Below, piece by piece: positions 28,235-50,774 of a stretch of DNA of 52,359 nt (within the stretch, counting starts at the first letter, position 1; each line of letters opens with the position of its first letter). The translations under genes were made by a program, and so were the position numbers. Source of the stretch: a virus. Its lineage: Duplodnaviria > Heunggongvirae > Uroviricota > Caudoviricetes. Where the stretch lies: the IMG/VR virus record IMGVR_UViG_2706795377_000001, positions 1 through 52,359 of that record, one strand, 5' to 3'. The notes under the pieces were generated by a model. It was not told where the DNA came from. It saw only the letters and a program-made list of their open reading frames with translations, and ran no database searches.

Positions 28235-28246
28235 GCGGTGAAAGAT

Positions 28247-29728: not shown

Positions 29729-29762
29729 TTGTTCATCTGAATAAAAAGGAGTGTTTGTAAAA

Positions 29763-32700
29763 ATGGAAGACTTTAGTATTTTAATTGGTGTCGATATGAG
29801 TGACGCTGAATCAAAAATAGAATCCACAATTAAGAGCATCGGAACAAAATACCCCCTCAAACTTCAACTCGAAGTAAGCGATGGCGATTTGAAGAATATC
29901 CAGAAGCTTTTCAAGGTACTTGAACACATTGATGTTGATTTGGGTCTTGAAAAGGATTCCAAAATCCTCAAAGATATGAAGCAATCCATTGAAAAAATCA
30001 GTAAAACTGATATCTCTAATGTTGGCGATGAACTTACAGATAGCTTAAAAGAGGCTAATAAGCAATCAGATGCGCTCAATAAATCGTTTGATAATTTGAT
30101 GAAAAAGCGCGAAGCCAAAAATCCAAAGAAGAGTACTACGACTGAAAAAACAGGGAACAAGTTTGATAACATTACAGTAACAACTAACAATCAAACTGGA
30201 AAAGAAGAACTTCGTGAACATAATCGTGACTTTGCTGGATTGGCTGATTATCAAAGCAAAGCTATAGATAAGCTTTCTAGCTTTAAAAACATTGACACTA
30301 AAAAAGTTGAAGAATTACAGAATCGCATTCAAAAGCTAAATCAAATGTTAGAGTCAAAAGACCCTGCCTTTCAAGACGAATTGAAAGACATTCAAAAGCT
30401 TATTAAAAGTTACGATGCGCTTGAACGACAAGTTGTAGAAGAAAAGCAAACTCAAGTAAGACAAACAAAAGAAGCGATTATTTGGGAGAAGAAGCTTGCT
30501 GAAATTCGTCGTGAAGGGCTTTCTAATCCTGCATCTGTCAATGCTTTAAGCAGACGAGTTGATGCACTTAAAAATGGTAACTACAAAACTAATGATGATT
30601 TAGAAAAACACCTTCAAAACATTAATAAACAACACGCCAAAGTTATTGGGTCGAGAGACGAAAACAAATTTAGACGTAAAGCTGTTAATGAAGGCGAGAA
30701 GATGAAGAAGAAATTCGATGACAATATCGACGAAAGTCTCGTTGGCAGTAAGGATTTCGCTCAGATTCAACAAAATCTAAAAAAGATTTTTAGTGCAGAG
30801 ACAACAGTACAACTTGAAAATGCAATAAAACGCGCTATTGAGTTATATGATAAATTGCTTCAAAAACAAATTGATGTTGCTCGTCAAAACAAGATGACGA
30901 AAGGTTTAGATGAATGGTCTGTAAAGATAGATGAAATCAAATCTAAAGGTTTTGTTAATGAAAGCGATTTTAATGCTGTTCGTAGTATGATGGCGAAGCT
31001 CAATACAGAATCAAAAGAGTTTGAAGCTAATCTTAAACAAATTGAACAAGAGCTTAATAAAGTAAACTTCATCTCAAATCAACGTCAAGGGAAAAATGAA
31101 AAGATAAATGTCACAAAATATCAGAACAATAACAAAGCTGATGATATGTTGTCTAATGGTCTTGTTCCTGAGTCGATGATTAGTGATTTCAAAGCATTAA
31201 ACAACATGCTTGATTTTGCATCATCTAAAGAAGACGTCGCTATGATTAATAGAGAGTTGCAAAAACTTGTTCAATTAGAAGGACAGATTAAGAATGCTGG
31301 AAGAGAAGAAGCTAGAATTAGAGAGTTGATTGCCCAAGCACAAAGAGACTCTATAAAGGCGACTGATAAGTATTCAGACATTATTGATTCTGTTGTTCGG
31401 AAATCCAACGAGCAAATTGCTGATATTCAACGAAAAAACGAAGTTGAACAAGAAGCTACGAGAATCCTACAACAAATCAATGACCTAAAAAACAGAAGCA
31501 CACAAATTTCTTATGATGAACATAGAGCAATTCAGCAACAAATCGCAGAGCTAAAACGTTTACAACAGGCTCATAAAAATGTTGAAGCTGAAGAAGAAGC
31601 AAGGTTGAATAAAATTAAGCAAATTAATGAGAAGTTTGAAAGCGTAGATTATAGGTCTAAACGAGGATTTAAAGACGGAAGCCCTGAATATGATGAAATT
31701 AAAAGAGAGTCAAATAGAATCAGAGGCAGAAAAGACAATTTATCAAGTCTAAGTGGAGAAGATTTTAAACGTGAAGCGAAAGAGATTGAGGAAGAAATGA
31801 ATCGACTCAGTACTCGCGCAAGTAGACTTCGCGACCAAGAAAGAGATAGAAATGCTTCGTTCTTCGGTCAAATGCAGAATGCAATGAAGAAGGTTCCAAT
31901 TTGGGTTTCTGCAATGTCAATTTTCTATGGGGCATTATCGCAAGTTCAACAAGGTTTTAGATACCTTCTCGACGTTGACAAAGCAATGACAAACTTAACG
32001 AAAGTAACAGAAGTCAGTAAAGGTGAACTCGAAGAATTCAAAGCGACAGCCTCTCAAATGGGCAAAGAGCTTGGTGTACTTGCGTCAGAAGTTATTAAGG
32101 CTACTACAGAGTTCCAGAAGCTTGGATATAATTTGGAACAAGCATCTCAACTTGGTCAAAACAGTATCTTATATGCAAACGTAGGAGACATGGGAATCGA
32201 AGAGGCTAGTCAAGCCCTCGTTTCAACAATCAAAGGTTTTGGTGTCGAAGTTGACAAACAGGGAAATAACGTAAGAAAAATCGTTGATATGTTTAACGAA
32301 GTAGGCAATAACTTCGCTGTTAGCTCTGAGGGTATTGGTGAAGCCTTAAAGCGTTCATCTGCAACGTTAAAAGAAGCCGGAAACTCGATGGCTGAGTCCA
32401 TTGGTCTGGTAACAGCCGCGAACTCCACTATACAAGACCCTAAAATTGTAGGTACTGCTTTAAAAACAGTGTCGATGAGGTTGAGAGGCGTAGATGAAGA
32501 AGGTAAGGTTGTAGCAACCCTTATTCCAGAAATTCAGAAGACATTCGATAGGATTAATAGAGACCTTGGAAAAAATGAAGGAAATGGTTTAAATATTCTA
32601 AAGAATGGTGGCAAAGATTTTAAGTCAACATACGAAATCATGAAGGATATTCGTGATGTATGGGATGAATTAAGCGACATTGAGAGAGCGAACCTTGTTG

Positions 32701-35700
32701 AAGTTATGGGTGGTAAACATCAAGGTAACATTGTAGCTTCCATTATTTCAAACTGGAAAGATGCTGAAAACGCAACAAATACTGCTATCAATTCTGCTGG
32801 TTCTGCATCGCGAGAGTTTGAAGCTTATATGGAAAGTTTTGATTACAAAATTGGACAGCTTAAAAATGCTCTTGAATTATTCTGGACTACGCTTGTCGAT
32901 GACGATGGCGCAAAAAATCTAATTGATACTTTGACAGAAATCATTAACACCATGACTGAATTAGTTAAGGTAATGGGAGCAGAAGGCGTTCTTGGTGCTT
33001 TCTTCGGATTGCTAACACTGTTTAATAAAGGTGTACGTGATGCTCTTCTTTTGGGTGGTGCAGTCAAAGGGCTTGGTGGAGCTGTGAAAGGACTTGCCAC
33101 AACAGTAATGTCCTTCGGTAAGATGGCGTTACGATTTGCTGGATGGATTGGTTTACTTGTTGTGGTAGCAGAGGGTATTGGGAAAATAGTTGACATGAAG
33201 AACGAAGAAGCAAAAAAACGAAAAGAAAATTTGGATACCATACAAAAAGAGATAACAGAACTAGAAAACCTCAAAAAGTCTTATGAAAACTTTGATGATA
33301 AATTCAAAGGTGGTATTGATAGATACGCTCAACTTGAAAACATGGGAAATAATAAGACAAACGAAGAATATGCGGAATATATCAGGATGCAAGAGTATAT
33401 TAAAAATGAAATGCCACAAATGATATCTCATTACAATGAGTATGGTCAAGCCGTTTTAAAATCAGCAGACCAGATTAAAAATTTGCGCATAGAAAATGAA
33501 AAGCTACTTGCCTCCAAAAAACGTGATGAATTTAAGTTTGAAATGGAAGATGCAGATTTTGATGAGCTTGAAAAAAGAATGAAAGAGTATCAGGAACATA
33601 AAGACAGAGTGACTGCTTCTGAAACTTCTGCCAAAATTAGAGATATGGTTAAAGATTATGTCAAATCTGACCTAGAAGGTTTAGATAGAACATCAGAAGA
33701 ATATCGCCAAAAACTCATAACGTTAAATAAGATGATAGAAGAAGAAGTTGGGAAGTTGTCTGAAAATCAACAACGCTTAATTTCATTCGATATGAACTCT
33801 ATCGCCACAGCTTTAATGAATCACGGAGATACGAACGGTATTGTAAAAGAAATAGATTTCTTGGAAAAGTCTGTAGGAGACAGAACTAAACGAATGACTG
33901 AGGGAATGAAACAGTCTAAAGAAGAAGTCAGAAAAAGCATGACAGGCTTTAGCGACATGCTTCAAAAACAACTTGAAATTACCATGAGAGAAAAAGGTAT
34001 TGGAAGAAACGATAACAAATTTATATTTGCAGAAGAACTCAAAAAGTCGATTGAAAATAATTTTGTAGAGCTTGGTGGGGAAATTCCAGACATCATTAAT
34101 AATTTCGGTACAACATTCGATATAGCATTGAAAAACATGAAAAATAGTGGTGTTGACTTGACTAATATGTTTAAATTCGATGCCAATACTGCAAGCGCTA
34201 CTTTGAAGCAGATTGATGACGCAATAGAAAATCTCCAAAATAGTGGTTCTGCAAATGTTAACATTCTAATTCAAGTACTTGAAGTATTTAGGGCAAAACA
34301 TGCTGAACTTATCCAGCAAGTTAACAATAGTGTTCCACACTTTGATTGGGTTACAAACGTGTATCCAGTTGTAGATGGTTTTATTGGTGGAATAAAAGAT
34401 TTGGATAGTGCATATAGAAATCTTGCCGATGGTCAAGAGCTTTCTATTGCAAATACTATGGAGATTGTTGCGAAGTACCCTAAGCTCTTAAATTACCTCG
34501 AAAGCGAAAATGGAGCATTGAAACTCAATGCAAATGCTATCAAGGAAATGGCGAAGATTAAAGAGGAAGAATTTAAGAGAGATTTGCAAATGAAAAAAGA
34601 AGAAGCGATTAACGCTAAAAATAAAGCAGAAGCAGTAATTCAAGCTATTCTCTCAGAAGCAAAAGCCACACAACTTCTTGCAGACATTAAGGCTAAAGGT
34701 GCAAAACAAACTGCTGACCAATTGGAAAATTATCGTTTTATGGCTCGAAAAATGGGTGAAGATGACCTTGTTGATGAATATGCAAAACAAATTGATGCTG
34801 TACAAAAAACTGGGAAACAACTTGAAGAAGTTGCAAAGATTGATGAACAGATAGCGAATATTGAAAAGCTCTTGAACATGGATTGGACTTCTAAGCTTGG
34901 TAGCATCACAAGTAGTCCAAAGAAAAAAAAGAAAAAAGAACTTCAAGATGCAATCTATGTCACTGATGAATACAAGAAAAAAATGGATGAGCTTAATGCT
35001 TCTATCGCGGAACAGCAAAGACTCCAAAAACTAAATGCTCAGTACTCTGGTGCTTATAGATATGCTCTCAATGAAGAAATCAAATTGACTGACAAGAAAC
35101 GTCAAGCTATTGAGAAACAAATTACGGCTTTACAAAAGCAAGTTGACAATAAAAAGATTCAAAAAACAGGTTTAATTACTCTAAGCAAAGATGACAACAA
35201 GACAGCGAGAGCGAAACAAGCTGAAATTCAACAAGAAATTGACCAAACGATTGAAAAAGTCAATCAGCTCAAGCAAGAGTATATCTCTGTTGGAGAAACG
35301 ATTAACTCCTTACGTTGGTCTTTCCTTCAATCAAATGTTGAACTCTACAACATTCAAAGAGAAATGCTTACTGATGATATCTCATACCAAGAATATGCGA
35401 TGGAACTGTATGACGAATCCTCTGATAAATATAGAACTCATGCGCGAGAGAAATTGAAGTTTGTTAGAGAACAACAAGAGTGGAATAAACAAGAACTTGA
35501 TTACTTAGAACGCGAAAAGGCAATGAACTCTGCATTGACTGACCAACAAATCTCTGAGTTAAATCATCTTATTAGAGAAAAACGTAAAGCAATTTATGAG
35601 ATGGCTCAAACCATTGACGAAGTTGAGAATGCCATTATCAACTCTCACTTCGAAGAAAAGATGGCAGTATATGCTTCTGAAAGTAAAAAATATGCTGATG

Positions 35701-37349
35701 AAATCAGAAGAATTGAAGACCAGATAAAGTACGACACAAAAGAAGATGACTACGCTGGAAACATTAAGTACTTAAAAGAAATCGTAGGTCTTCGTAAAGG
35801 AGAAATTACTGACATCAAAGCCACACTCGCTGAACTTTATGCAATGAAAAATCGTCATAAAGACAATTTAGAGATAGTAGGAAAAATCAAAGATGAGATT
35901 GAACAGTGGGAAGATAAACTAAAAGATTCTCAATCTGCTGTCAAAGAGTTGAATAAGCGAATTAAAGATGTTTACGAAGAGCTTGCTGATAAAATGGTTG
36001 ACCTCTACAAAGAACAGCTTAAATTGATGCAGAAAGCCGAAGAAGACGCATATAAAGACATGATGGATGCGGAGCAGAAACGTCATGAACAACGAATCAA
36101 GAACATTGAAAAAGAGCTGAAAATCCTTGAAGATGCCTACAATAAACAAATGAAGATGATTGATAGAGAAGAGGCTACTCGCGATTATGAAAACGACACA
36201 AAGAAAATGGATGACGAAATCAAACAACTTCGTGAGCAAATCAATACATTATCTCTTGACGATTCTTATGAAGCAAAAGCTAAGAAGGCAGAACTTGTCA
36301 GACAGTTAACAGAAAAAGAAATGGAACTTGCGGAAGTACAACATGACAGAGAAGTTGATTTAAGAAAAAATAATCTTGAAGATGACTATGAAGCTGAGAA
36401 AGATAAGCTAGAAAAACGTAAAGAAGGATACGAGGACGATTTTAAAAATTGGAAAGCGATGGAAGAGAAAAAACAAGATGAACGTAAAAAGTATTGGGAA
36501 GACGAACTCAACAATGAGAAGAAATTCGCAGAACTAAGACAAGAGGTGCTTGATGGAAATTTTGAAGGGATGCTTGAAACAGTAGCAAACTGGTCTGAGA
36601 ATGTATCAAGTCATATGGGAGAATTGGGCGAAACGATTACTGAAAACTTTACTTATAAGGTAGAGCAAGCAATTGAAAGGCTCAAAGAACTATCAAGTAT
36701 GGGACTGCCATCTTATAACAGAGTTGTTGACAGCACAAACCCAACAAACCTTGATGGCGATAAACCAGAACATATTGAGAATCCAAAAGGCGAAGGAAAC
36801 CTAAGCGAATTATCATCATCAGAAACTAATATTGTTAAAAAAATGATGGGAAACAGTGATAAATGGCTTGATGCAACAGACCCGAAAAAGAAAGCTGAAC
36901 TGCACCAAAAGAATGTTGATTTATCTAAAGGTATCAGTGGAGCATATTATCAAAATGGAACTTGGTACAAAAATGGGAAAAAACTTTACAACCTTGTACC
37001 TTTTGACACTGGTGGTTATACAGGTGATTGGGAAGGGGACAAAGGTAAACTTGCAATTCTTCACAAGAAAGAGCTTGTCTTGAATGAACAACAAACCAAA
37101 CACATCCTTGATACTGCTCGTCTTTTCGAAAAAATTAAAAACATTACTCCAAATATTAATCTTAGTGGACTTCAAGAAATTATATCTCAGAAACAAAAGC
37201 AAGAAACAATTGTTCCTACGCCTATTGAACAAAACGAATATACACTTAACGTCAATATTGAGAGAATGAATGGCGATAAGAAGAGCGCAGATATTGTTGC
37301 TGGTCAAATTATCAATAATATTAAGCGTACTAAGGGAGGACGATTCTAA
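29763..37349 (+). CDS. Tail tape measure protein (about 2528 aa)
   Basis: TP901-like core (VDKAMTNLTKVT...TEFQKLGY...ANVGD), long coiled coils, C-terminal PFDTGGYTG...AILHKKELVLN. Confidence 0.93.
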   Translation: MEDFSILIGVDMSDAESKIESTIKSIGTKYPLKLQLEVSDGDLKNIQKLFKVLEHIDVDLGLEKDSKILKDMKQSIEKISKTDISNVGDELTDSLKEANKQSDALNKSFDNLMKKREAKNPKKSTTTEKTGNKFDNITVTTNNQTGKEELREHNRDFAGLADYQSKAIDKLSSFKNIDTKKVEELQNRIQKLNQMLESKDPAFQDELKDIQKLIKSYDALERQVVEEKQTQVRQTKEAIIWEKKLAEIRREGLSNPASVNALSRRVDALKNGNYKTNDDLEKHLQNINKQHAKVIGSRDENKFRRKAVNEGEKMKKKFDDNIDESLVGSKDFAQIQQNLKKIFSAETTVQLENAIKRAIELYDKLLQKQIDVARQNKMTKGLDEWSVKIDEIKSKGFVNESDFNAVRSMMAKLNTESKEFEANLKQIEQELNKVNFISNQRQGKNEKINVTKYQNNNKADDMLSNGLVPESMISDFKALNNMLDFASSKEDVAMINRELQKLVQLEGQIKNAGREEARIRELIAQAQRDSIKATDKYSDIIDSVVRKSNEQIADIQRKNEVEQEATRILQQINDLKNRSTQISYDEHRAIQQQIAELKRLQQAHKNVEAEEEARLNKIKQINEKFESVDYRSKRGFKDGSPEYDEIKRESNRIRGRKDNLSSLSGEDFKREAKEIEEEMNRLSTRASRLRDQERDRNASFFGQMQNAMKKVPIWVSAMSIFYGALSQVQQGFRYLLDVDKAMTNLTKVTEVSKGELEEFKATASQMGKELGVLASEVIKATTEFQKLGYNLEQASQLGQNSILYANVGDMGIEEASQALVSTIKGFGVEVDKQGNNVRKIVDMFNEVGNNFAVSSEGIGEALKRSSATLKEAGNSMAESIGLVTAANSTIQDPKIVGTALKTVSMRLRGVDEEGKVVATLIPEIQKTFDRINRDLGKNEGNGLNILKNGGKDFKSTYEIMKDIRDVWDELSDIERANLVEVMGGKHQGNIVASIISNWKDAENATNTAINSAGSASREFEAYMESFDYKIGQLKNALELFWTTLVDDDGAKNLIDTLTEIINTMTELVKVMGAEGVLGAFFGLLTLFNKGVRDALLLGGAVKGLGGAVKGLATTVMSFGKMALRFAGWIGLLVVVAEGIGKIVDMKNEEAKKRKENLDTIQKEITELENLKKSYENFDDKFKGGIDRYAQLENMGNNKTNEEYAEYIRMQEYIKNEMPQMISHYNEYGQAVLKSADQIKNLRIENEKLLASKKRDEFKFEMEDADFDELEKRMKEYQEHKDRVTASETSAKIRDMVKDYVKSDLEGLDRTSEEYRQKLITLNKMIEEEVGKLSENQQRLISFDMNSIATALMNHGDTNGIVKEIDFLEKSVGDRTKRMTEGMKQSKEEVRKSMTGFSDMLQKQLEITMREKGIGRNDNKFIFAEELKKSIENNFVELGGEIPDIINNFGTTFDIALKNMKNSGVDLTNMFKFDANTASATLKQIDDAIENLQNSGSANVNILIQVLEVFRAKHAELIQQVNNSVPHFDWVTNVYPVVDGFIGGIKDLDSAYRNLADGQELSIANTMEIVAKYPKLLNYLESENGALKLNANAIKEMAKIKEEEFKRDLQMKKEEAINAKNKAEAVIQAILSEAKATQLLADIKAKGAKQTADQLENYRFMARKMGEDDLVDEYAKQIDAVQKTGKQLEEVAKIDEQIANIEKLLNMDWTSKLGSITSSPKKKKKKELQDAIYVTDEYKKKMDELNASIAEQQRLQKLNAQYSGAYRYALNEEIKLTDKKRQAIEKQITALQKQVDNKKIQKTGLITLSKDDNKTARAKQAEIQQEIDQTIEKVNQLKQEYISVGETINSLRWSFLQSNVELYNIQREMLTDDISYQEYAMELYDESSDKYRTHAREKLKFVREQQEWNKQELDYLEREKAMNSALTDQQISELNHLIREKRKAIYEMAQTIDEVENAIINSHFEEKMAVYASESKKYADEIRRIEDQIKYDTKEDDYAGNIKYLKEIVGLRKGEITDIKATLAELYAMKNRHKDNLEIVGKIKDEIEQWEDKLKDSQSAVKELNKRIKDVYEELADKMVDLYKEQLKLMQKAEEDAYKDMMDAEQKRHEQRIKNIEKELKILEDAYNKQMKMIDREEATRDYENDTKKMDDEIKQLREQINTLSLDDSYEAKAKKAELVRQLTEKEMELAEVQHDREVDLRKNNLEDDYEAEKDKLEKRKEGYEDDFKNWKAMEEKKQDERKKYWEDELNNEKKFAELRQEVLDGNFEGMLETVANWSENVSSHMGELGETITENFTYKVEQAIERLKELSSMGLPSYNRVVDSTNPTNLDGDKPEHIENPKGEGNLSELSSSETNIVKKMMGNSDKWLDATDPKKKAELHQKNVDLSKGISGAYYQNGTWYKNGKKLYNLVPFDTGGYTGDWEGDKGKLAILHKKELVLNEQQTKHILDTARLFEKIKNITPNINLSGLQEIISQKQKQETIVPTPIEQNEYTLNVNIERMNGDKKSADIVAGQIINNIKRTKGGRF

Positions 37350-37939
37350 TGTTAGAGGGAGTTAATTTTTACTACGATGGTATCTATTCAGTTGACATGG
37401 GGGTTATCAACTGCCAAATTGATGGAGGGATGTTTGAAGAAGCATTCCTTCCTTCAAGAAAAATTGAAGAGGTATCTGTGAATGGACGAGTCAAGCCCTA
37501 CTTTCAAAACGTAGGGCTTGAACCTCTTGAATTTGAAATGACATTTGCATTTGAGTTTGGCTATGACGAAAGACGATTGAGAGAGGTTGCACGATGGCTT
37601 CATCAAGACTACTATAAGCCTTTTTATACAATCGACAATCCAAATCGAATCTTTTATGTCATGGCAGAAGGCGATTCAAAATTGGTTCATAATGGAGGCA
37701 AGCAAGGGTACATAACACTCAAAATGAGGTGCGATAGTGCTTATAGTTACACTCCAAAGTTCACCAAAGAAAATATGAAGTTTGAAGGCACAAAACCAAC
37801 AAAAACTATTGCGGAAAACACTTTTAGTAGTGGGATGGGTCAAATGGAAAATATCGAAATTATAGGTAATCAGCTTACAGTAAAAAAGTATGCTACAACT
37901 TGGCATGCATTTGCAGGGAAGAAATGGAGTGATTTGTAA
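37349..37939 (+). CDS. Distal tail protein (Dit), N-terminal part
   Basis: TAATG-coupled to the tape measure gene; F.YDG..S.DMG...PLEF...RWL.QDYYKP...RIFY...GYITL.MRCDS.YSY.P. Confidence 0.8.
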   Translation: MLEGVNFYYDGIYSVDMGVINCQIDGGMFEEAFLPSRKIEEVSVNGRVKPYFQNVGLEPLEFEMTFAFEFGYDERRLREVARWLHQDYYKPFYTIDNPNRIFYVMAEGDSKLVHNGGKQGYITLKMRCDSAYSYTPKFTKENMKFEGTKPTKTIAENTFSSGMGQMENIEIIGNQLTVKKYATTWHAFAGKKWSDL

Positions 37940-38826
37940 TGATTCTAACGCATAGATTGAGCCTAATTATGCCTCAAGTATCTGATAAGGTGCAAGATAC
38001 AATCGACTGGTTAGCGCAAAACTTCCAAGCCCTTGACGACAGTTACGATGAAATTATTTCGGATTTAGATTCCAATCTTAATATTGGTACAGCATATCAG
38101 GTAGGGAAAAAGTACTGGAATAAATCAGTTCACTTAGGTGGCTTTGTCGGATGGGTCAATACAAGAACAGGTGTATTTGCTCCTACATGGAAGTCTCAAA
38201 AAACTTACAAAGCAGGAGATGCTGTGACAGCAGTAGATGACAATGGTCACTACTTTGAATGTGTTGTTGGAGGAACAAGTTGCGTTAATCATCCTGCCCT
38301 ATCTACTGTATCAGGAGACACTACTTACGATATTAATGGACATTCAAAATGGACAGAATCATATGTATACAGCTTAAATGATGTTGTAATTGCAAGTGAT
38401 GGCAACATGTCTTATTACTACAAATGTATTATTGAAGGAACCTCATCTACCAAAGAGCCAGTTTGGAATAACGTAGAAGGTACTACTATTATTGACGGTA
38501 GTGTTCACTGGTATGTTTATAAAACTGTTCAGTGGAAAGAAAAAGGTGTTAGTTGTAATTTTATTCCGTTTGGGAATATTGGTATAGATGCAAAAACAAA
38601 TGGATATACAGCTAAATTCGTTCAGAGCATTGGGGATGGCACTTCTACGTCTATTGCTGTAACGCACAACCTTGGAACACAGGACGTTTTGGTAATGATT
38701 CGTGAAGCAGATTCCCCATATTCTAAAGTTGATGCTGATATTCGAGTTTCTGATAATAATAGCATCCTTATCAACTTTGCAGTCGCCCCTACCAAGAATC
38801 AATATCGAGTAGTAATTGTGGGATGA
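37939..38826 (+). CDS. Tail protein with two CBM5/12-like repeats and a C-terminal beta domain
   Basis: TWKSQKTYKAGDAV...YFECVVGGTS and KWTESYVYSLNDVV...YYKCIIEGTS; IGDG...VTHNLGTQDV. Confidence 0.7.
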   Translation: MILTHRLSLIMPQVSDKVQDTIDWLAQNFQALDDSYDEIISDLDSNLNIGTAYQVGKKYWNKSVHLGGFVGWVNTRTGVFAPTWKSQKTYKAGDAVTAVDDNGHYFECVVGGTSCVNHPALSTVSGDTTYDINGHSKWTESYVYSLNDVVIASDGNMSYYYKCIIEGTSSTKEPVWNNVEGTTIIDGSVHWYVYKTVQWKEKGVSCNFIPFGNIGIDAKTNGYTAKFVQSIGDGTSTSIAVTHNLGTQDVLVMIREADSPYSKVDADIRVSDNNSILINFAVAPTKNQYRVVIVG

Positions 38827-38832
38827 TAAATT

Positions 38833-38858
38833 AGGCTACCTTAGTAGGTAGCCTTTAT
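38833..38858 (+). terminator. Hairpin, probable terminator inside the split Dit locus
   Basis: AGGCTACCT-TAGT-AGGTAGCCT followed by an AT/T-rich tail. Confidence 0.6.
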
Positions 38859-38882
38859 TACTTTTACAAGGAGGTTGACTAC

Positions 38883-39521
38883 ATGACCACTTGGGCTGAA
38901 TTATATAAAATGAAAGGTACTTACATTTCTCAAGTATATGATGTTTCCTCAAATTTTGAAACCTACTTCGATAGGTTTCTTTATTACTATGATACAAATG
39001 ACGGAACAGTAGATGTATATTTGAGAATATCGTTTGATGGATACAATTGGCAGGATTGGATTAATATTAATAATCAAGCCTATGAAGATTTATTTAGAGA
39101 TGAGTTTTATAATCTTGAATACTGTAAACTTCAATATAAAGTTGTAATGGTAAACGAGGGTGACATCAGTCCAGTATTCAAAGAATTTTCCATAACTTTG
39201 ATGGGTTCTTATATGGTATGTAATAGTGGAGATGTAATCTGTAAACCAGAACTTTGGATTACCAAGAGAAATGGTAGTGGAACAGTAAAGCTTACTAATG
39301 AAAGCAATGGACAGACTTTAATACTCGAAAATCTTAATAACAATGAAGAGGTTTACATTGATTGCGAGAATGAAGATATCGTTAGTAATCTGCCATTAAC
39401 TTATAGATATAATGCTCATAATAATGTGTTTTTGGAATTTGAAGTTGGAGAAAATTTGCTTACAGGGGAAGGTGATTTTGACCTTGTAATGCGATTCGAG
39501 TTCAAGACCCTACAAGGATAA
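38883..39521 (+). CDS. Protein carrying the Dit C-terminal domain
   Basis: NSGDVICKPELWI...LTNESNG...IDCENE...FLEFEVGENLL. Confidence 0.7.
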   Translation: MTTWAELYKMKGTYISQVYDVSSNFETYFDRFLYYYDTNDGTVDVYLRISFDGYNWQDWININNQAYEDLFRDEFYNLEYCKLQYKVVMVNEGDISPVFKEFSITLMGSYMVCNSGDVICKPELWITKRNGSGTVKLTNESNGQTLILENLNNNEEVYIDCENEDIVSNLPLTYRYNAHNNVFLEFEVGENLLTGEGDFDLVMRFEFKTLQG

Positions 39522-39539: not shown

Positions 39540-42500
39540 ATGGTAGCACGATTAGGAGAAATTGATTTTAAGAAAAAGCCCGTTAAACCACAATTGTTTC
39601 TGTGTAAGCCAAACAGACAAATCATTTCAAAAATGAATGAAGCCTACAATATTAATTATAGTCAGAAGTTAGGCGCGTTGAATGAACTGACATTTAGACT
39701 TCCTGTTTTTATTGACAAGCATCACACAATTGATAGAAATGAGAATGCAGATATTATTAAGGGAAGATTTTTGGTTAAGTTGGTTCTAAATAAATATGAG
39801 GAATATTTCATAGTCAACCAACTTAAAAAAATAGGGAAAGACGATGGCGAATTTATTGATGTTAGCTCTCTATCTTTGGGTTTTGAATTAAATGACAAAA
39901 TCATTCGTGATTATGAAGTGGAATCAAAGACAGCAACTCAACTTCTTAACGACATTTTTATTAATACAATTTGGTCTATTGGCTACGTTGACTCTGAATT
40001 TGACTTAAAGTATAGAGGGTTAAAAGTATCATCTAATACAGTTTTAGAACTTGTATTTGAGATTGCAAAAACGTTTAACGCATTGGTTGTTTGGGACACA
40101 TTGCAACGTAAGGTAAGTTTTACAAGACCAGAGAACACAGGTCAAGATAAAGGATTCCGAATTAAATATGGGAAGTATTTAGAGGGATTGAACCAAGAAG
40201 ACAATGCAGAAGAAGTTATTACTCGACTAAAGTTATATGGGAAAGAAAACATCAGTATTCATGGAGTCAATCCAACAGGTACATCATACATTGAAGATTT
40301 TCAGTATTACATGTATCCATACAAGGAAGTAAAAAATTCCGATATTCAAAAAATAACTTCAAATGAAATAATGACCACATGGTTTGGCGACAAGCAGGAT
40401 TGGATGGAACAAAACGGAAAAATGAAGCTATTCTATGCTAGACCATCTCAATCTATTATTTACAACAAAAATGCTTTATTTAATAAAAATTATAGAATCA
40501 ATGCTACATTTCGCACGCACATTGACGATAATGTTTTTGGTGTGATTGTGAGATATCAAGACAATCTTAACTACTATTATGTTGGATACAACTCAGGAAG
40601 AGTAGATGGTGGTCTTGGATGGGGAGAAAACAACGTTCGTATTTACAAGGTTATCAATGGTGTTCATACACTAATAGCTCAAACAGACAGAATTGCTGGA
40701 TGGAGTCAAAACAATGATTATAATATTGGTGTTGAAGCTAGCAATGATACTATTACAGTTTTCATTGAAAATAATCTTGTATTAAGTGTCAGAGACAATA
40801 GTTTGGCAAGTGGTGCTTATGGATTCTATGGTCAAAATCAAGTCTTCACTGTTGGCAATGTAGAAATCGTTCATAAAGAGTACACAGTACTCGAACACAG
40901 TGATTTTATGTCTGATGAACTATGTCATGCTATTATTGCCTACAATGATTTGCTTCAAGCTAATAAAGATAAATTTGAACAGTTTAGAGGCAAGAAGGAA
41001 GCGTTTGATGGAATCCTCGATGTTAAAAATAAGGAACTTAAAGAATTGCAAACACAACACAAGATTCTTCTTGATGAACGCGATATGCTCAATACTCGAA
41101 TTGCACAGATGGAAGACGTTGTTGACCATACAGATAACCAACACGAAGATACCTCAATAGTAGAAGCAGATTTGCAAGCTTTGAAGAATGAACTAGATGT
41201 TAAACTCTTAGAAATAAAAGCAAAGGAAGCTGAAATTAGTCAGAAGGAAGCTGAGATAATCATCGAAGAACAGAATCGTCAAGGTGTTGACAATGAAATC
41301 TTAGCTTTAAAAAATCTTTTGAGCGTTACAAACAACTTCACCAAAGAGCTTCTCGAAGAAAGGAATCAGTATGAGATTGAAAAGGAATGGCAAGACAACA
41401 ATATTATAGACCCAAAAGATTTGTTGCAAGCAGGTATTAAAGTATTTAATGAATATAGACAACAAAAGATTACTTTAAAAATTGATGTTGTTAACTTCCT
41501 TGGAATGATAACCGAACAACGAAATTGGGACAAGTTGGGATTGGGTGATACGATTAACATTGAACATGAAAGATTAAAAGTTCTATTCAAAGCAAAATTG
41601 ACAGAAATCGAATACGATTTTGAGGATGATTCTATCAATATCACCATTAGCAACGTAAAAGACGCATATGCGAATAAAGATAAGTTATATGAGATGCTAT
41701 ATAAGTCTTATAACTCTTCGACTCAAATTACTATCGACTCTTGGAAATGGGATTTGTCACTAGAAAACAAAGGCTCTATCAACCAAATCATAAACAACAT
41801 TTGGGATGCGAATAAACAAGCAATTGTGGGTGCAAAAGACCAAGTTATTGAGATTTCGGATAGAGGTTTAATTATCCGCGACCCAAAAGACCCTAATAAC
41901 TATCTAGTTGGCATCAACTCAATGATTGCAATAACTAATGATGGCGGTAATACATGGAAACACGCCATCACATCCACAGGTATTGTAGGGGAACGTATCT
42001 ACGGGAAGGTCATTATGGGTGTCAATTTAGCTATTGAGGATGAACATGGCATCGTTAAATGGCAAGGCTCGAAGGGTGAAATTTTTGATAGAAACGGAAA
42101 GCTGGTAATGAATCTTGGATTAGTGTCTGAGAACCCTGATTGTTTTGGCATGATGGCTTTTAATGACATTACAAGGGTCAAGGTTACTGATTGTGAGGGC
42201 TTTGCTATCGAACGTGCAAATCGTTCCAGACCTGATGGCTGGGAGAAGATAATGTGGGCTGACCAGAGCGACGGTACGCTTTATACGCATGACCTTGTTG
42301 CTGAGAATATTAAGATTGTTAACGATGTTGGAGAATTGATTCTAGATGCTGAAAATCACTATCTCAACATTGGAGATTTTAACAATATTGTAATGGATGG
42401 AAAGCTTACTACAATGGAGAAAATCACTATTATTCAAGAATTGTATAAAATCCATTCTGGTTACAAACGTATGCTAGAGCAAGCTGAAAAATATAGACGC

Positions 42501-44372
42501 TCTACTAGAGATGACACTGTAAATATAGATTCCCAATTTCTTTCTAGCACCCCAAGTACTATTGACAGACTTTCTACAGCACCACTTATGAACGCTTATC
42601 TCGCCTTGATTGAATATATGAAACAGTATGTTAAGGTCAAGTCTATAGACCCATTAGAGATTGATGTGAATGACCCACTTACTGAGCAAACAAGCGAAAT
42701 CCCTGACAGAGCAACTTTCATCTTGAAATTCAAAACCTACTATGATGAAGAGAAAAAACTAAGAAACGCAATTGAAGACTCGATGTTCTATACTGGACTT
42801 AATATGGGCAAATTTTACAATAATGTTGTTATTGGTAACTTTGGCTTCATTGCTTTAAGAAATGATGGCAAGTACAGAGCTTACCTTAATGCAACAAATG
42901 GACTAGCATTGCAGAAATGGGAAAGTGGAAGATGGGTAAACAAAGTATATGCTTCTCTTGGCAACAGAGAGTATCCAGATGGGACACTTATTGCAGAAGA
43001 CCTTGTTGCAAAACGATTGAGAATAGAAACTAAGTTTGGTGATGTTTTGCTGGACTTTGATTCATTGAATCTTGACTTTACAGTGCTTGATAGTATTGTT
43101 TTGGACGATGTAATTATGTCTCCTGAGAAAATCACCTTGCTCAATCAATTCAAGAGTATTACACAACAATACAATACGCTAAAACAGCAAATTTCTAAGT
43201 ACGCAACCACTATATATAATGACAGAGATTCTACTTATTTCGGATTAGATACAGCTAAAAATAATCTTGTGACCGCAGGGGATGAATTGGATACGTCCTA
43301 CAATGAGCTAAAGACTTACTTGAATCCTGTCTTCGCAGACATGAATGCGAAAACCCATGTCGTTAATGATTTGCACTCTAGTAGATATGAGTTTCATATG
43401 AAATGGGAAACCTTCTACAAGAAATATGAAAATGCTAGGTCAAAACTAGCAGACTTCTTAGAAAAGAGTTCATTGCAGTTAGGGAGAAACTATAATAACA
43501 CTGTAATTGATGCACAAAATGGTATTGTTGTAACAAGAGGTAACATCAAAAATCGAACTACCCTAAACGCTACAGAAGGTATCAAAATTGAGCGTAATGA
43601 TGGTACTGCTGGTTCACCACGTTGGACAAAGGTCTTCTACGTTGATTTAGAAGGCAACTTATTTGCAGAAGACATCACTACTAAAGGATTAAAAATCGTT
43701 AGCGCTAATCTTGGAGACTCAATTGAGTTCGATGCTACTAAAGGTATCACTATTAGGGGCGATAATGGAGTTGTAATAAGGCTAAATAAAAAAGATGGCA
43801 TAAAAATTGATGTATTTAATGACCCAAGGTTCTGGATTGCTCCTGACGGAACGTTGAGAGCAAAGAAATTAATTATCAGTACTGATATGGAAGCACCAGT
43901 GGAACTGCCAGATGGCTCATTTATTTCTCAATTAACTGTATCATCAGTGAGAACGCTAGAAAACAATAATGCACAAGATTACGTTTGGGTTAAAGACCAA
44001 TTCATCAGGTTCATTTCTGGCGATGGCTCTGGTTCTGACCAAGAAAAAATGGCTATCTATCTTGAGTCTTCTACAGGAAGCATGAACGGAATCCCTGTCA
44101 TCAAGATGGGTGATGGTTCTGGTAATGGTAATGAAGTAGGTTACATTAGAAAGGATGAAAATGGTTTTCATTTCCTATACAAAGCCTCTGGTGGATACGA
44201 TAGAAACATTGTAATGCCAGCCACAGGTTCAGATGGTGTAATTCTTACGTCTATGGGCGCGAGTATTAGGCTTACTTCTGATAATACAATCAGACTCGAA
44301 GTTGGCTCAAGCTATCTTGAAGTTTCAACATCTGGAATTAAGATGGTTGGTTCTCGAATTGATATTAACTAA
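39540..44372 (+). CDS. Tal/baseplate hub fused to lectin-like insert, coiled coil and C-terminal beta-spike (about 1610 aa)
   Basis: Prophage Tal N-terminus (ITRLKLYGKENISI..VNPTG.SYIEDF); ConA-like insert; C-terminus SIRLTSDNTIRLEVGSSYLEVSTSGIKMVGSRIDIN. Confidence 0.85.
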   Translation: MVARLGEIDFKKKPVKPQLFLCKPNRQIISKMNEAYNINYSQKLGALNELTFRLPVFIDKHHTIDRNENADIIKGRFLVKLVLNKYEEYFIVNQLKKIGKDDGEFIDVSSLSLGFELNDKIIRDYEVESKTATQLLNDIFINTIWSIGYVDSEFDLKYRGLKVSSNTVLELVFEIAKTFNALVVWDTLQRKVSFTRPENTGQDKGFRIKYGKYLEGLNQEDNAEEVITRLKLYGKENISIHGVNPTGTSYIEDFQYYMYPYKEVKNSDIQKITSNEIMTTWFGDKQDWMEQNGKMKLFYARPSQSIIYNKNALFNKNYRINATFRTHIDDNVFGVIVRYQDNLNYYYVGYNSGRVDGGLGWGENNVRIYKVINGVHTLIAQTDRIAGWSQNNDYNIGVEASNDTITVFIENNLVLSVRDNSLASGAYGFYGQNQVFTVGNVEIVHKEYTVLEHSDFMSDELCHAIIAYNDLLQANKDKFEQFRGKKEAFDGILDVKNKELKELQTQHKILLDERDMLNTRIAQMEDVVDHTDNQHEDTSIVEADLQALKNELDVKLLEIKAKEAEISQKEAEIIIEEQNRQGVDNEILALKNLLSVTNNFTKELLEERNQYEIEKEWQDNNIIDPKDLLQAGIKVFNEYRQQKITLKIDVVNFLGMITEQRNWDKLGLGDTINIEHERLKVLFKAKLTEIEYDFEDDSINITISNVKDAYANKDKLYEMLYKSYNSSTQITIDSWKWDLSLENKGSINQIINNIWDANKQAIVGAKDQVIEISDRGLIIRDPKDPNNYLVGINSMIAITNDGGNTWKHAITSTGIVGERIYGKVIMGVNLAIEDEHGIVKWQGSKGEIFDRNGKLVMNLGLVSENPDCFGMMAFNDITRVKVTDCEGFAIERANRSRPDGWEKIMWADQSDGTLYTHDLVAENIKIVNDVGELILDAENHYLNIGDFNNIVMDGKLTTMEKITIIQELYKIHSGYKRMLEQAEKYRRSTRDDTVNIDSQFLSSTPSTIDRLSTAPLMNAYLALIEYMKQYVKVKSIDPLEIDVNDPLTEQTSEIPDRATFILKFKTYYDEEKKLRNAIEDSMFYTGLNMGKFYNNVVIGNFGFIALRNDGKYRAYLNATNGLALQKWESGRWVNKVYASLGNREYPDGTLIAEDLVAKRLRIETKFGDVLLDFDSLNLDFTVLDSIVLDDVIMSPEKITLLNQFKSITQQYNTLKQQISKYATTIYNDRDSTYFGLDTAKNNLVTAGDELDTSYNELKTYLNPVFADMNAKTHVVNDLHSSRYEFHMKWETFYKKYENARSKLADFLEKSSLQLGRNYNNTVIDAQNGIVVTRGNIKNRTTLNATEGIKIERNDGTAGSPRWTKVFYVDLEGNLFAEDITTKGLKIVSANLGDSIEFDATKGITIRGDNGVVIRLNKKDGIKIDVFNDPRFWIAPDGTLRAKKLIISTDMEAPVELPDGSFISQLTVSSVRTLENNNAQDYVWVKDQFIRFISGDGSGSDQEKMAIYLESSTGSMNGIPVIKMGDGSGNGNEVGYIRKDENGFHFLYKASGGYDRNIVMPATGSDGVILTSMGASIRLTSDNTIRLEVGSSYLEVSTSGIKMVGSRIDIN

Positions 44373-44384
44373 GAGGTGATATTA

Positions 44385-44822
44385 ATGCCAGCAATTGCGT
44401 TCAACGGAAGTAAAACTAATGATGTTGTTACCAACGATATTAGCTACAGACAATGGAACCCATGTAAAACACGAGTTTGTGATGACAAAGGGAATTGTTG
44501 GTGCGTTGGTGGATGGGACAGCTATAGTGGCGGTTCCTCCACTATCTCTGGCACTGTTGTTGCAACATCATCCAATGTTTTTATTAATGGAAAACCTATT
44601 GCAAAACAAGGTGATGATGTAACAGAAACGGAACGCCCAAATGTGAATGGTGAACCAATCGCAAATCACACAGGGGGTACAGGGAAAGTTACTATAGGTA
44701 ATTCTCGAAATGTATACTCAGGTGGTCAGTCTGTAGCAATCGTAGGGAGTCAAGTAAAAACACACTCGACTCCCTACACTACTGTTAAAGATGGTTCAAG
44801 TAATGTTTTTATTGGTGGTTGA
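44385..44822 (+). CDS. PAAR-repeat spike-tip protein
   Basis: MPAIAFNGS..., SSNVFINGKPIAKQGD, GNSRNVYSGGQSVAIVGS, GSSNVFIGG. Confidence 0.85.
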   Translation: MPAIAFNGSKTNDVVTNDISYRQWNPCKTRVCDDKGNCWCVGGWDSYSGGSSTISGTVVATSSNVFINGKPIAKQGDDVTETERPNVNGEPIANHTGGTGKVTIGNSRNVYSGGQSVAIVGSQVKTHSTPYTTVKDGSSNVFIGG

Positions 44823-44840: not shown

Positions 44841-45992
44841 ATGCCATACTCAGATTACTCGTACTTTGACCCACTGCACATTGTATGGAGAAGAGGTACA
44901 CCAGAAGACCCATATCTCGATAGGATTGAATATCTAAAGGTACTCAACCATAAAGTGGTCTTAGCTGAAATCCCTGATAGGTTTACAAGGGTTAAAATAG
45001 CAGGGTTAATAGAGATTAACTACGATGGAGTACCAAAAAAGAATATTGCACCTGATGAATTTTGGGTGAATTATTCTACTGGCGTAATTGAAGTTCATCC
45101 ATCGCAGGAGTCCAACAATCTTAATATCAGCTATAAAGGAAAGGGATTTATTCAGTATCCATCCAGTCGAATCTATCACCAAGACCAATTCAATGATGTT
45201 GTTGAATCTCTCGACAAGATTATTGATAAAGCTATTGATAGTTTGAAAGATGTAGACCATAAAGTATCTGACTATAAAAGTGTTCGAGATAAAATTCTAC
45301 AAGCAATAATTAAAGCTGATGTAGCCGCGACTGATGCGAAAGAGGCAACAGAGGACGCAATTGTAGCTACTGATAAAGCTTTAGACGCTTATGCGACAAC
45401 AAAATTGGTATTCAAACCATTTGTTTACACCTATAATGATATCTTTAAAAACTATCCATCACCAAAAGCTGGTTGGACTACACAGGTTTATGATAGTGGC
45501 ATTAGGTATAGATTTGATGGTATTTCTTGGGTTCCGATTGATTTATTTGGTGGAAACATTCCATTAGCGAATGATAACATCAATGGTCTAATGTCTAAAG
45601 AGGATTATATTAAATTACAAACTTATGATGACAGATTGAAAGAGAGAGTGATTACATTTGTAATTCCTCAGTATCCAGATATTGGTGTTCAGCATATTAA
45701 TGCTAGGTTCCCATTCAAAGGGGAAATTACAAATATTAGAGGTATTTGCGGATATCCAGACGCGACTACAGATACTGAAATTTCGATTCAAAAAAGCAGT
45801 GACATGATTAATTGGTACAACATTTTAAAAAGAAATTTGGTTTTTAGAAGGAATGAACATTTTGACGATGGACTGAAAGACATTCAAACCTTCACTATAA
45901 ATAAGGATGATATTTTCAGACTGGAAATCATGCAATTGGGTCGAGACCTACAAGATGTGACCATTGAAATTATGATAAAAATTGTTCAATAA
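44841..45992 (+). CDS. Baseplate/tail fibre attachment protein (YomF-like N-terminus)
   Basis: RRGTPEDPY...LAEIPDRF...FWVNYSTG...YKGKG..YPSSRI; coiled coil. Confidence 0.65.
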   Translation: MPYSDYSYFDPLHIVWRRGTPEDPYLDRIEYLKVLNHKVVLAEIPDRFTRVKIAGLIEINYDGVPKKNIAPDEFWVNYSTGVIEVHPSQESNNLNISYKGKGFIQYPSSRIYHQDQFNDVVESLDKIIDKAIDSLKDVDHKVSDYKSVRDKILQAIIKADVAATDAKEATEDAIVATDKALDAYATTKLVFKPFVYTYNDIFKNYPSPKAGWTTQVYDSGIRYRFDGISWVPIDLFGGNIPLANDNINGLMSKEDYIKLQTYDDRLKERVITFVIPQYPDIGVQHINARFPFKGEITNIRGICGYPDATTDTEISIQKSSDMINWYNILKRNLVFRRNEHFDDGLKDIQTFTINKDDIFRLEIMQLGRDLQDVTIEIMIKIVQ

Positions 45993-49817: not shown

Positions 49818-49883
49818 ACTACTAAAGCCATAAAAAGAACTTATATCTCAATTGAATATGGATTTTATTTATGGGGTGATTGG

Positions 49884-50048
49884 ATGATTTTATTTATTTC
49901 AATTATGATTTATCTACTAATTGGATTTTACTTTAAGAAACCAGAAGAATGGAATTTGGCAACAAAAATACTTGTTCATATCTTCTGGCTACCAATAATT
50001 CTTTTTTTAATTATTATAATCCGATTCATTGGCGTAAAAATAATGTAA
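49884..50048 (+). CDS. 54-aa membrane protein with two hydrophobic segments (absent from ORF track)
   Basis: MILFISIMIYLLIGFYFKKPEEWNLATKILVHIFWLPIILFLIIIIRFIGVKIM; RBS GGGGTG. Confidence 0.6.
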   Translation: MILFISIMIYLLIGFYFKKPEEWNLATKILVHIFWLPIILFLIIIIRFIGVKIM

Positions 50049-50064
50049 CTCAGGAGTGATATAC

Positions 50065-50760: not shown

Positions 50761-50774
50761 GGGGTGTTTTATAA

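What the first reader, a model, noticed from the sequence alone, without database searches (positions are those of the whole stretch)
39540..44822. VgrG/gp5-like spike with a PAAR tip on a sheath-less, non-contractile tail
The tail has a tube, a 2500-aa tape measure, Dit and Tal, and no sheath gene lies between capsid and fibres. Yet Tal ends in short periodic beta-strands closing with GSRIDIN, as gp5/VgrG/P2 gpV spikes do, and the next gene is a clear PAAR protein. PAAR tips are established for contractile systems (T4 gp5.4, T6SS, R-pyocins), so a siphophage puncturing tip of this kind would be unusual. That the two proteins assemble into a spike is inference.
Basis: partly seen in the sequence, partly recalled or inferred. 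Interest (0 to 1): 0.8.

Follow-up and report, generated by a model that had tools for sequence, protein, structure and literature searches.

The report
PAAR tip on a sheath-less phage tail
A large Brevibacillus phage with a long, non-contractile tail encodes, right after its tail-tip protein, a genuine PAAR "spike-sharpening" protein known so far only from contractile injection machines, and the tail-tip protein ends like the spikes that PAAR caps.

Summary
ORF 39540-44372 is a siphophage Tal (YOMG_N and Prophage_tail domains). ORF 44385-44822 is a true PAAR protein: Pfam 46 bits against a cut-off of 27, and its AF2 model matches T4 gp5.4, c1882, VCA0105 and phiKZ gp163.1.

The complete 134,270-bp genome has no sheath gene. 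Its length, GC content, and ParA, PhoH and PAAR genes match Brevibacillus phage Sundance, which EM shows as a siphovirus with a 404-nm tail. The relative Perkons, with the same gene order, also has a non-contractile tail by EM.

The last ~55 residues of Tal resemble the ends of VgrG/gp5-type spikes. The evidence is sub-threshold DUF2345 hits in 8 of 18 homologues, hhalign E=4.5e-5 to genuine spike ends, and a shared terminal ..R-I-D-L/I-N.

All 16 loci with this Tal ending carry a PAAR gene just downstream. Three relatives without the ending have none. Tal-linked PAARs form one clade (95/95) and share a ~45-residue, variable, Cys-rich insertion, modelled here as a beta-hairpin.

I found no description in the searched literature; the Sundance paper reads the gene as a virulence factor. 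I class it as a new variant of a known kind. First-stage notes of this scan flag similar loci in three other genomes.

The parts
29751..37349 (+). Tape measure protein, 2532 aa
   Evidence: Pfam PhageMin_Tail 88 bits. At 1.5 A per residue the length predicts about 380 nm, against 404+/-37 nm measured for Sundance.
37349..37939 (+). Dit N-terminal half (DUF6558), a separate gene
   Evidence: Pfam DUF6558 36 bits and phrog_33 Dit. The same split occurs in relatives.
37939..38826 (+). 295-aa gene between the two Dit halves; its C-terminal ~80 aa is shared with 'head decoration' PHROGs
   Evidence: phrog_20658 and others. A gene of similar size sits at this position in relatives.
38883..39521 (+). 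Dit C-terminal half (DUF6558_C / SPP1_Dit C-domain)
   Evidence: Pfam DUF6558_C 35 bits and SPP1_Dit 24 bits.
39540..44372 (+). Tal (tail hub plus central fibre), 1610 aa
   Evidence: Pfam YOMG_N 92 bits and Prophage_tail 79 bits at aa 22-262; phrog_6211 minor tail protein.
43854..44369 (+). Tal C-terminal all-beta domain (aa 1440-1611 of P0001), ending in the spike-like strands and GSRIDIN
   Evidence: 33 homologues among 1.8 billion representatives, nearly all at protein C-termini. Near-invariant terminal G-x-R-I-D-L-N. DUF2345 hits in 8 of 18 members. hhalign E=4.5e-5 to spike ends. AF2 model is all-beta, with pLDDT about 90 over the last 30 aa.
44385..44822 (+). PAAR protein, 145 aa
   Evidence: Pfam PAAR_motif 46 bits. 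AF2 pLDDT 87.7. Foldseek top hits are T4 gp5.4, c1882, VCA0105 and phiKZ gp163.1. PDB profile hit 4jiw_D at E=2.7e-4.
44424..44549 (+). Lineage-specific insertion in the PAAR protein (aa 14-55): long beta-hairpin with four Cys (C27, C32, C38, C40) around the turn
   Evidence: Strands 14-32 and 38-59 in the AF2 model. Absent from the 93-126-aa PAARs of short-spike loci. This is the least conserved part of the protein, 0.59 against 0.75.
44841..45992 (+). 383-aa gene that always follows the PAAR gene; its counterparts in relatives carry Pfam YomF_N
   Evidence: phrog_11315. YomF_N (PF27067) appears on the gene in the same position. A strong RBS lies 8 nt upstream and there is no terminator.

Best explanation
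The window is the structural arm of a large temperate-type siphophage, very probably Brevibacillus phage Sundance. Its Tal forms the trimeric hub that closes the tail tube and continues as a central fibre of about 740 residues. The last ~55 residues of that fibre form a short, blunt, VgrG/gp5-like beta-structure. One copy of the 145-aa PAAR protein, translated from the next cistron, caps that blunt end and so becomes the most distal part of the virion.

No sheath is present to drive a stab. The tip therefore most likely works passively. It seals and stabilises the free beta-edges of the fibre end, gives a narrow wedge that can pass through the S-layer or peptidoglycan mesh, and presents its variable Cys-rich hairpin to the envelope as a contact or trigger surface. 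This would act ahead of Tal opening and tape-measure ejection.

Shown here: gene identities, absence of a sheath, similarity to spike ends, and strict co-inheritance. Taken from the literature: EM morphology. Inferred: the physical cap, presence in the virion, and the passive-tip or trigger role.
For: - PAAR identity: Pfam 46.1 bits against 27; PDB hits 4jiw_D and Tas1 PAAR; AF2 model pLDDT 87.7, with its best Foldseek matches all PAAR proteins bound to spikes.
- Tal identity: YOMG_N and Prophage_tail.
- Spike-like ending, sequence level: DUF2345 is the only Pfam family hit repeatedly, by 8 of 18 homologues, best E=5.5e-5. In the profile-vs-PDB search, 4 of the 9 listed hits are phiKZ gp164, two VgrGs and the VgrG C-terminal fragment 3wit, aligned up to the chain end. 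hhalign against C-termini of genuine Phage_base_V and Gp5 spikes gives E=4.5e-5 with end-to-end register.
- Spike-like ending, fold level: VIA hits at Z 5-7.5 include phiKZ, phi92, AFP, PVC and Francisella spikes.
- Co-inheritance: 16 of 16 loci whose Tal ends ..R-I-D/N/H-L/I-N have a PAAR gene 0-3.7 kb downstream. Tsamsa, SPbetaL4 and KKP_3916 have a homologous Tal N-terminus but another ending and no PAAR.
- Tal-linked PAARs form one split, 95/95.
- Operon context: 12-nt gap, own RBS, no terminator.
- Non-contractile tail: no sheath (with positive control); EM of Sundance and Perkons.
Against: - No direct evidence that the two proteins touch or that the PAAR protein is in virions. The Sundance and Perkons papers, as searched, contain no mention of mass spectrometry.
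- Every similarity of the Tal ending to VgrG/gp5 is below curated or conventional significance when taken singly: DUF2345 17 bits against a cut-off of 30.7, PDB E 0.03-0.3, Foldseek E>0.1, VIA Z<8.
- The monomer model cannot show a triple helix.
- No OB-fold (Phage_base_V) was detected in Tal.
- The protein has only two His, so the canonical 3His+1Cys zinc site (recalled from Shneider 2013) cannot be formed as such.
- The Sundance preparation also contained myovirus tails from the co-isolated phage Powder.
- That the window is Sundance is inferred from length, GC and gene content, not from an alignment, because the record was not available.
Confidence: 0.7

Rival explanations
1. The PAAR protein is a virion or assembly protein, but it caps another trimeric beta-structure rather than Tal. 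Candidates are the always-following YomF_N protein or one of the lectin-rich fibres. Alternatively it acts only as a transient assembly cap for the Tal trimer and is absent from mature particles.
For: The order Tal - PAAR - YomF_N is conserved, so linkage to the downstream gene is as strict as to Tal. No interaction test could be run.
Against: The spike-like terminal motif shared with PAAR-preceding spikes sits on Tal, not on the downstream protein. In contractile systems the PAAR gene likewise follows the spike gene.
Confidence: 0.17
2. The PAAR gene is a moron or host-benefit gene, that is, a secretion or virulence factor for the lysogen. This is how the Sundance genome paper and the PHROG category read it.
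For: [quoted passage not shown]
Against: It has no toxin or effector domain and is only 145 aa. It sits inside the tail operon with coupled translation signals and no promoter or terminator of its own above background. It is co-inherited with a particular Tal ending across loci as low as 31% identical. From established knowledge, T6SS, the only cellular system that uses PAAR, is not known in Bacillota. True moron islands in relatives lie between Tal and PAAR and leave PAAR in place.
Confidence: 0.04
3. The phage is in fact contractile, with a sheath too divergent to be recognised, so the PAAR spike is ordinary.
For: Many structural ORFs have no family assignment. Myovirus tails were seen in the Sundance preparation.
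Against: The authors attribute the myovirus tails to the co-isolated Powder and measured Sundance tails of 404 x 13 nm without a sheath. Perkons shows a 381 x 12.7 nm non-contractile tail. A 2532-aa TMP, Dit and a Prophage_tail-type Tal make up the siphophage set. No ORF of sheath size lies between the connector genes and TMP. The sheath HMMs work on control phages.
Confidence: 0.02

Closest known systems
T4 gp5-gp5.4 and T6SS VgrG-PAAR spike complexes (PDB 4ku0, 4jiw, 4jiv; Shneider et al. 2013)
   Same: The PAAR fold and motifs are shared. The gene lies directly after the gene whose product ends in short beta-strands. The terminal ..(V/I)(D/N)(L/I)N is shared with genuine OB-fold spikes that precede PAAR genes.
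   Different: There is no sheath, baseplate wedge or OB-fold. The carrier is a 1610-aa siphophage Tal behind a 2532-aa tape measure. The PAAR has a ~45-aa Cys-rich hairpin insertion and only two His. The host is Gram-positive, so there is no outer membrane to pierce.
Siphophage Tal / central-fibre proteins (SPbeta YomG family; from established knowledge T5 pb3-pb4 and SPP1 gp21)
   Same: The N-terminal YOMG_N and Prophage_tail hub is shared, as is the TMP - Dit - Tal gene order. A long C-terminal extension is expected to form a central fibre.
   Different: SPbetaL4, Tsamsa and KKP_3916 Tals end differently and their genomes have no PAAR. I found no report of a PAAR cap on any siphophage tip.
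Psychrobacillus phage Perkons ORF187/186/185 + ORF184 (MT325768; PMC13245101)
   Same: The module is the same at 38% identity: TMP, split Dit, Tal ending ..GTVINLN, a PAAR homologue, then a gene in the YomF_N position (not family-tested in Perkons). EM shows a non-contractile tail.
   Different: The Perkons Tal is annotated as three ORFs with an inserted 266-aa gene. ORF184 is annotated as hypothetical, and the paper does not mention PAAR.

Membership tests
PAAR (Pfam PF05488) | Match to the family HMM above the curated cut-off | tested here: met
   46.1 bits against 27. 14 of 15 aligned homologues carry PF05488 in precomputed annotation.
PAAR (Pfam PF05488) | Three PAAR-type repeats giving a pseudo-threefold cone | tested here: met
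   The repeats are MPAIAF.., NVFINGKPIAKQGD and NVYSGGQSVAIVGS, plus a terminal GSSNVFIGG. Invariant columns fall in these repeats. The AF2 model superposes on gp5.4, c1882, VCA0105, P1 and phiKZ PAARs with TM (by target) 0.60-0.77 and probability 0.99-1.00.
PAAR (Pfam PF05488) | Zinc site near the apex (3 His + 1 Cys in VCA0105/c1882; recalled from Shneider 2013) | tested here: inconclusive
   The protein has only two His (H95, H127). All four Cys lie in the inserted hairpin. No His or Cys column is invariant in A1. A different metal or disulfide arrangement is possible.
PAAR (Pfam PF05488) | Binds the blunt end of a trimeric beta-helical spike | not testable with these tools
The only support is co-occurrence.
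PAAR (Pfam PF05488) | Part of a contractile (sheathed) injection system | tested here: not met
   No sheath in the complete genome. EM of Sundance and Perkons shows non-contractile tails. This is a known context of the family rather than a structural criterion.
VgrG / gp5 / Mu gp45-type central spike | C-terminal triple-stranded beta-helix | tested here: inconclusive
   DUF2345 hits are sub-threshold (17 bits; 8 of 18 homologues, best E=5.5e-5). PDB profile hits to phiKZ gp164, VgrG and 3wit have E 0.03-0.3. hhalign to spike ends gives probability 69% and E=4.5e-5. VIA gives Z 5-7.5 to several spikes. A monomer model cannot show a trimer.
VgrG / gp5 / Mu gp45-type central spike | OB-fold (Phage_base_V / Gp5_OB) that plugs the hub | tested here: inconclusive
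   No Pfam hit to PF04717 or PF06714 anywhere in the 1611 aa. No structure search was run on the middle of Tal.
VgrG / gp5 / Mu gp45-type central spike | Protein ends at the last beta-strand with ..(V/I)(D/N)(L/I)N and is followed by a PAAR gene | tested here: met
   Tal ends ..GSRIDIN. Genuine spikes upstream of PAAR genes end ..GGKVNLN..ASRIDLN(P)..GGKVNIN and ..APRVDIN.
Siphophage Tal (Prophage_tail PF06605 / YOMG_N PF24049) | N-terminal hub domains above cut-off, encoded after TMP and Dit | tested here: met
   YOMG_N 91.8 bits against 27 and Prophage_tail 78.7 bits against 31.3. The gene order is TMP, Dit halves, Tal.

The most novel reading that the evidence does not exclude
A clade of large Bacillota siphophages (Sundance, Perkons and many prophages) ends its flexible, non-contractile tail in a PAAR-capped beta-helical needle. 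The PAAR module, probably taken once from a contractile-tail spike, has been re-used without any contraction engine. Its added Cys-rich hairpin acts as the envelope sensor or receptor contact that triggers Tal opening. This would make PAAR a general tail-tip cap rather than a hallmark of contractile injection.
Probability: 0.35. Interest if true: 0.8.

Novelty: new variant of a known kind. Interest (0 to 1): 0.66.

Why it matters
PAAR proteins are treated as a signature of contractile injection machines: T6SS, myophages, tailocins and eCIS. They are explained as sharpening a spike that is driven through a membrane by sheath contraction.

A conserved PAAR-tipped fibre on sheath-less tails of phages that infect Gram-positive cells has two consequences. 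Either PAAR has a role independent of mechanical punching (edge capping, wall probing, triggering), or long-tailed phages use an unrecognised piercing step. It also corrects database labels ('moron', 'virulence factor', 'T6SS Zn-binding protein') for this gene in phage genomes.

Two culturable models, Sundance and Perkons, are available for a direct cryo-EM and genetic test.

Tried and rejected
- Foldseek of the Tal C-terminal model against PDB gave nothing at E<0.1. Spike entries (phiKZ, R2 pyocin, VgrG1) appear only among weak rows.
- phmmer of Tal 1100-1611 against PDB returned only chance haemoglobin hits. Tal 1-900 returned nothing.
- megablast of the region against the phage collection found nothing. 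The KT151959 record is not held, so identity with Sundance rests on length, GC and gene content.
- Six of the seven literature searches run (PAAR with siphovirus, siphophage, non-contractile, Siphoviridae, Tal/Dit; and YomG) gave mostly author names (Paar, Paarmann) or myophage and T6SS papers. None describes a PAAR on a non-contractile tail. Subscription journals are not covered.
- A strict 8-residue periodicity of the ending was not supported. Only beta-type lag-2 alternation and broad peaks at lags 7-10 were seen.
- The contractile-phage reading and the moron reading were considered and rejected; see the rival explanations.
Full report
**What is there**

The window is the first 52,359 b of a complete 134,270-b viral genome with direct terminal repeats. 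On the + strand a head and tail module runs from terminase and portal to:
- a 2532-aa tape measure at 29751-37349, with PhageMin_Tail;
- a Dit split into two genes, 37349-37939 (DUF6558) and 38883-39521 (DUF6558_C / SPP1_Dit), with a 295-aa gene between them;
- the 1610-aa Tal at 39540-44372;
- a 145-aa ORF at 44385-44822;
- a 383-aa gene at 44841-45992;
- at least eight lectin-rich genes (Laminin_G_3, F5/8 type C, SPRY, CBM96), ending at an amidase endolysin.

Each of the three central genes has a strong Shine-Dalgarno site. The gaps are 12-18 nt, and no terminator lies between them.

**Identity of the phage and its morphology**

Genome length (134,270 bp) and GC (35.5%) equal those published for Brevibacillus phage Sundance (PMC4909266, Table 1). 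ParA and PhoH genes lie early in the window, and Sundance has ParA as gp7, PhoH as gp15 and a PAAR protein as gp40. The GenBank record is not in the held collection, so this identity is very probable but not proven by alignment.

That paper reports a siphovirus with a 404+/-37 x 13 nm tail and no sheath. It notes that myovirus tails in the image came from the co-isolated phage Powder. The TMP predicts about 380 nm at 1.5 A per residue.

The nearest cultured relative is Psychrobacillus phage Perkons, at 38% identity. It has the same gene order including a PAAR homologue, ORF184. Its EM shows a 381 x 12.7 nm non-contractile tail (PMC13245101).

The two Pfam sheath models find nothing in the whole genome. 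No ORF between capsid and TMP, or downstream, resembles a sheath. The same model detects sheaths in 3 of 5 PAAR-bearing contigs of the short-spike type, so the negative result is meaningful.

**The PAAR protein**

- Pfam PAAR_motif scores 46.1 bits against a cut-off of 27.
- PDB sequence and profile hits are c1882 (4jiw_D) and the Tas1 PAAR domain.
- With 15 homologues the AF2 model reaches pLDDT 87.7.
- Its best Foldseek matches are exclusively PAAR proteins solved on spikes: T4 gp5.4, c1882, a Klebsiella phage KP1 variant baseplate chain, VCA0105, P1 and phiKZ gp163.1.

Compared with those ~95-aa proteins it carries a 42-residue insertion (aa 14-55). The insertion is predicted as a long beta-hairpin with four Cys around the turn. 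It is the least conserved part of the family. The protein has only two His, so the classical 3His+1Cys zinc site cannot exist as such. I could not determine the direction in which the hairpin points.

**The Tal ending**

The C-terminal 172 aa have only 33 homologues among 1.8 billion representatives. Nearly all of them sit at the C-termini of 600-1600-aa proteins and end in a near-invariant G-x-R-I-D-L-N.

Several independent but individually weak lines point to VgrG/gp5-type spike ends:
- DUF2345 (the VgrG C-terminal domain) is the only Pfam family hit repeatedly, by 8 of 18 members, best E=5.5e-5.
- In the profile search of PDB, 4 of the 9 listed hits are phiKZ gp164, two VgrGs and the VgrG C-terminal fragment 3wit. 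In 3wit..GITIVGGSVFIN aligns with ..GIKIVGSRIDLN.
- The all-beta AF2 monomer (pLDDT 71 overall, about 90 at the end) gives VIA Z 5-7.5 to spikes of phiKZ, phi92, AFP, PVC, Algoriphagus CIS and Francisella VgrG. These hits are mixed with other single-layer sheets.

The most direct evidence came from the more distant PAAR loci fetched from viral contigs. There the upstream proteins are genuine spikes (Phage_base_V, Gp5_OB and Gp5_C, and a family whose name is masked in the output) and end ..GGKVNLN..ASRIDLN..GGKVNIN and ..APRVDIN. A profile-profile comparison aligns the last 54 columns of the Tal family with these spike ends in end-to-end register, at E=4.5e-5 and probability 69%.

**Co-inheritance**

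Sixteen distinct Tal-type loci end in this motif. They are the window, Perkons, Brevibacillus and Paenibacillus prophages, and metagenomic and IMG/VR contigs, with identity down to about 30%. Every one has a long-type PAAR gene 0-3.7 kb downstream. Wherever downstream sequence and Pfam annotation were available, a YomF_N gene follows it.

Where extra genes intervene, the PAAR gene stays. Examples are a Bro-N/ANT island in B. brevis and single ORFs in two other loci.

Tsamsa, SPbetaL4 and Alicyclobacillus phage KKP_3916 share the Tal N-terminus but have other endings and no PAAR. No sheath model hit occurred in five further Tal-type contigs, although these are fragments.

In a maximum-likelihood tree of 32 PAARs, the 16 Tal-linked proteins form one side of a branch with 95/95 support. 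The caveat is that the short-spike sample was itself retrieved by similarity to the Tal type.

**Interpretation**

The simplest reading is that one PAAR caps the blunt trimeric end of the Tal central fibre and forms the distal tip of a non-contractile tail. Without a sheath the tip cannot be driven. I therefore favour a passive role: edge-capping and stabilisation, a narrow probe through the S-layer or peptidoglycan, and contact or trigger through the variable hairpin.

The 2026 phage 812 paper notes that rigid beta-helix spikes are associated with piercing Gram-negative outer membranes, whereas that Gram-positive myophage uses enzymatic spike domains (PMC13433997). That makes this tip unusual in a second way.

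The capping itself, presence in the virion and the function remain inferences. The complex predictor was not available.

**Novelty**

The Sundance paper lists the gene as a possible host virulence factor. PHROGs files the family as a moron. JGI names homologues 'Zn-binding protein involved in type VI secretion'. The Perkons paper does not mention it.

The literature searches of the held library found no report of a PAAR on a siphophage tail. A jumbo-phage survey explicitly ties standalone PAARs to Myoviridae (PMC7824862).

First-stage notes of this scan flag the same pattern in three other genomes. One of them quotes the ending ..IKLNGSSIHLN, which I also saw in locus L023. I class the finding as a new variant of a known kind.

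Noticed in passing
window 28238-29248 (+): A tyrosine-integrase-like gene (phrog_1, 179 bits) sits inside the tail module, between the putative tube/chaperone genes and the tape measure. Perkons has the same arrangement (ORF195), and its paper discusses multiple integrases.
   Followed up: partly
window 37349-39521 (+): The Dit is split into two genes (DUF6558 and DUF6558_C / SPP1_Dit C-domain). A 295-aa gene lies between them, and its C-terminal ~80 aa match 'head decoration' PHROGs. The split is conserved in all relatives examined.
   Followed up: partly
L002 16541-17338 (Perkons ORF186); L018 2910-3962: In Perkons and one metagenomic relative, the Tal is broken into an N-terminal hub gene and a C-terminal fibre gene, with an inserted ORF between them (266 aa in Perkons; 350 aa with DUF7487 in L018). 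This looks like a mobile insertion at a domain boundary.
   Followed up: no
L004 6357-9883 and L003/L021 (Brevibacillus prophage-like loci): A ~3.7-kb island lies between Tal and the PAAR gene in close relatives. It holds a Big_5 protein, an opposite-strand Bro-N/ANT antirepressor and small ORFs. It is a swap-prone spot that nevertheless leaves the PAAR gene in place.
   Followed up: no
window 47685-52359 and G000 52751-61670 (L008): A run of at least eight large genes carries Laminin_G_3, F5/8 type C (four of them, one below cut-off), SPRY and CBM96 domains before the lysis genes. This is an unusually large set of carbohydrate-binding tail appendages.
   Followed up: partly
window 44463-44504 (PAAR aa 27-40): A four-cysteine cluster, C-x4-C-x5-C-x-C, surrounds the turn of the inserted hairpin. 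The Cys/His content of this stretch varies strongly between homologues. It may be a metal knuckle or a set of disulfides.
   Followed up: partly
window 12598-13791 (+): A PIN_4 domain is fused to a PhoH-like ATPase. This corresponds to the 'PhoH' listed for Sundance gp15.
   Followed up: no
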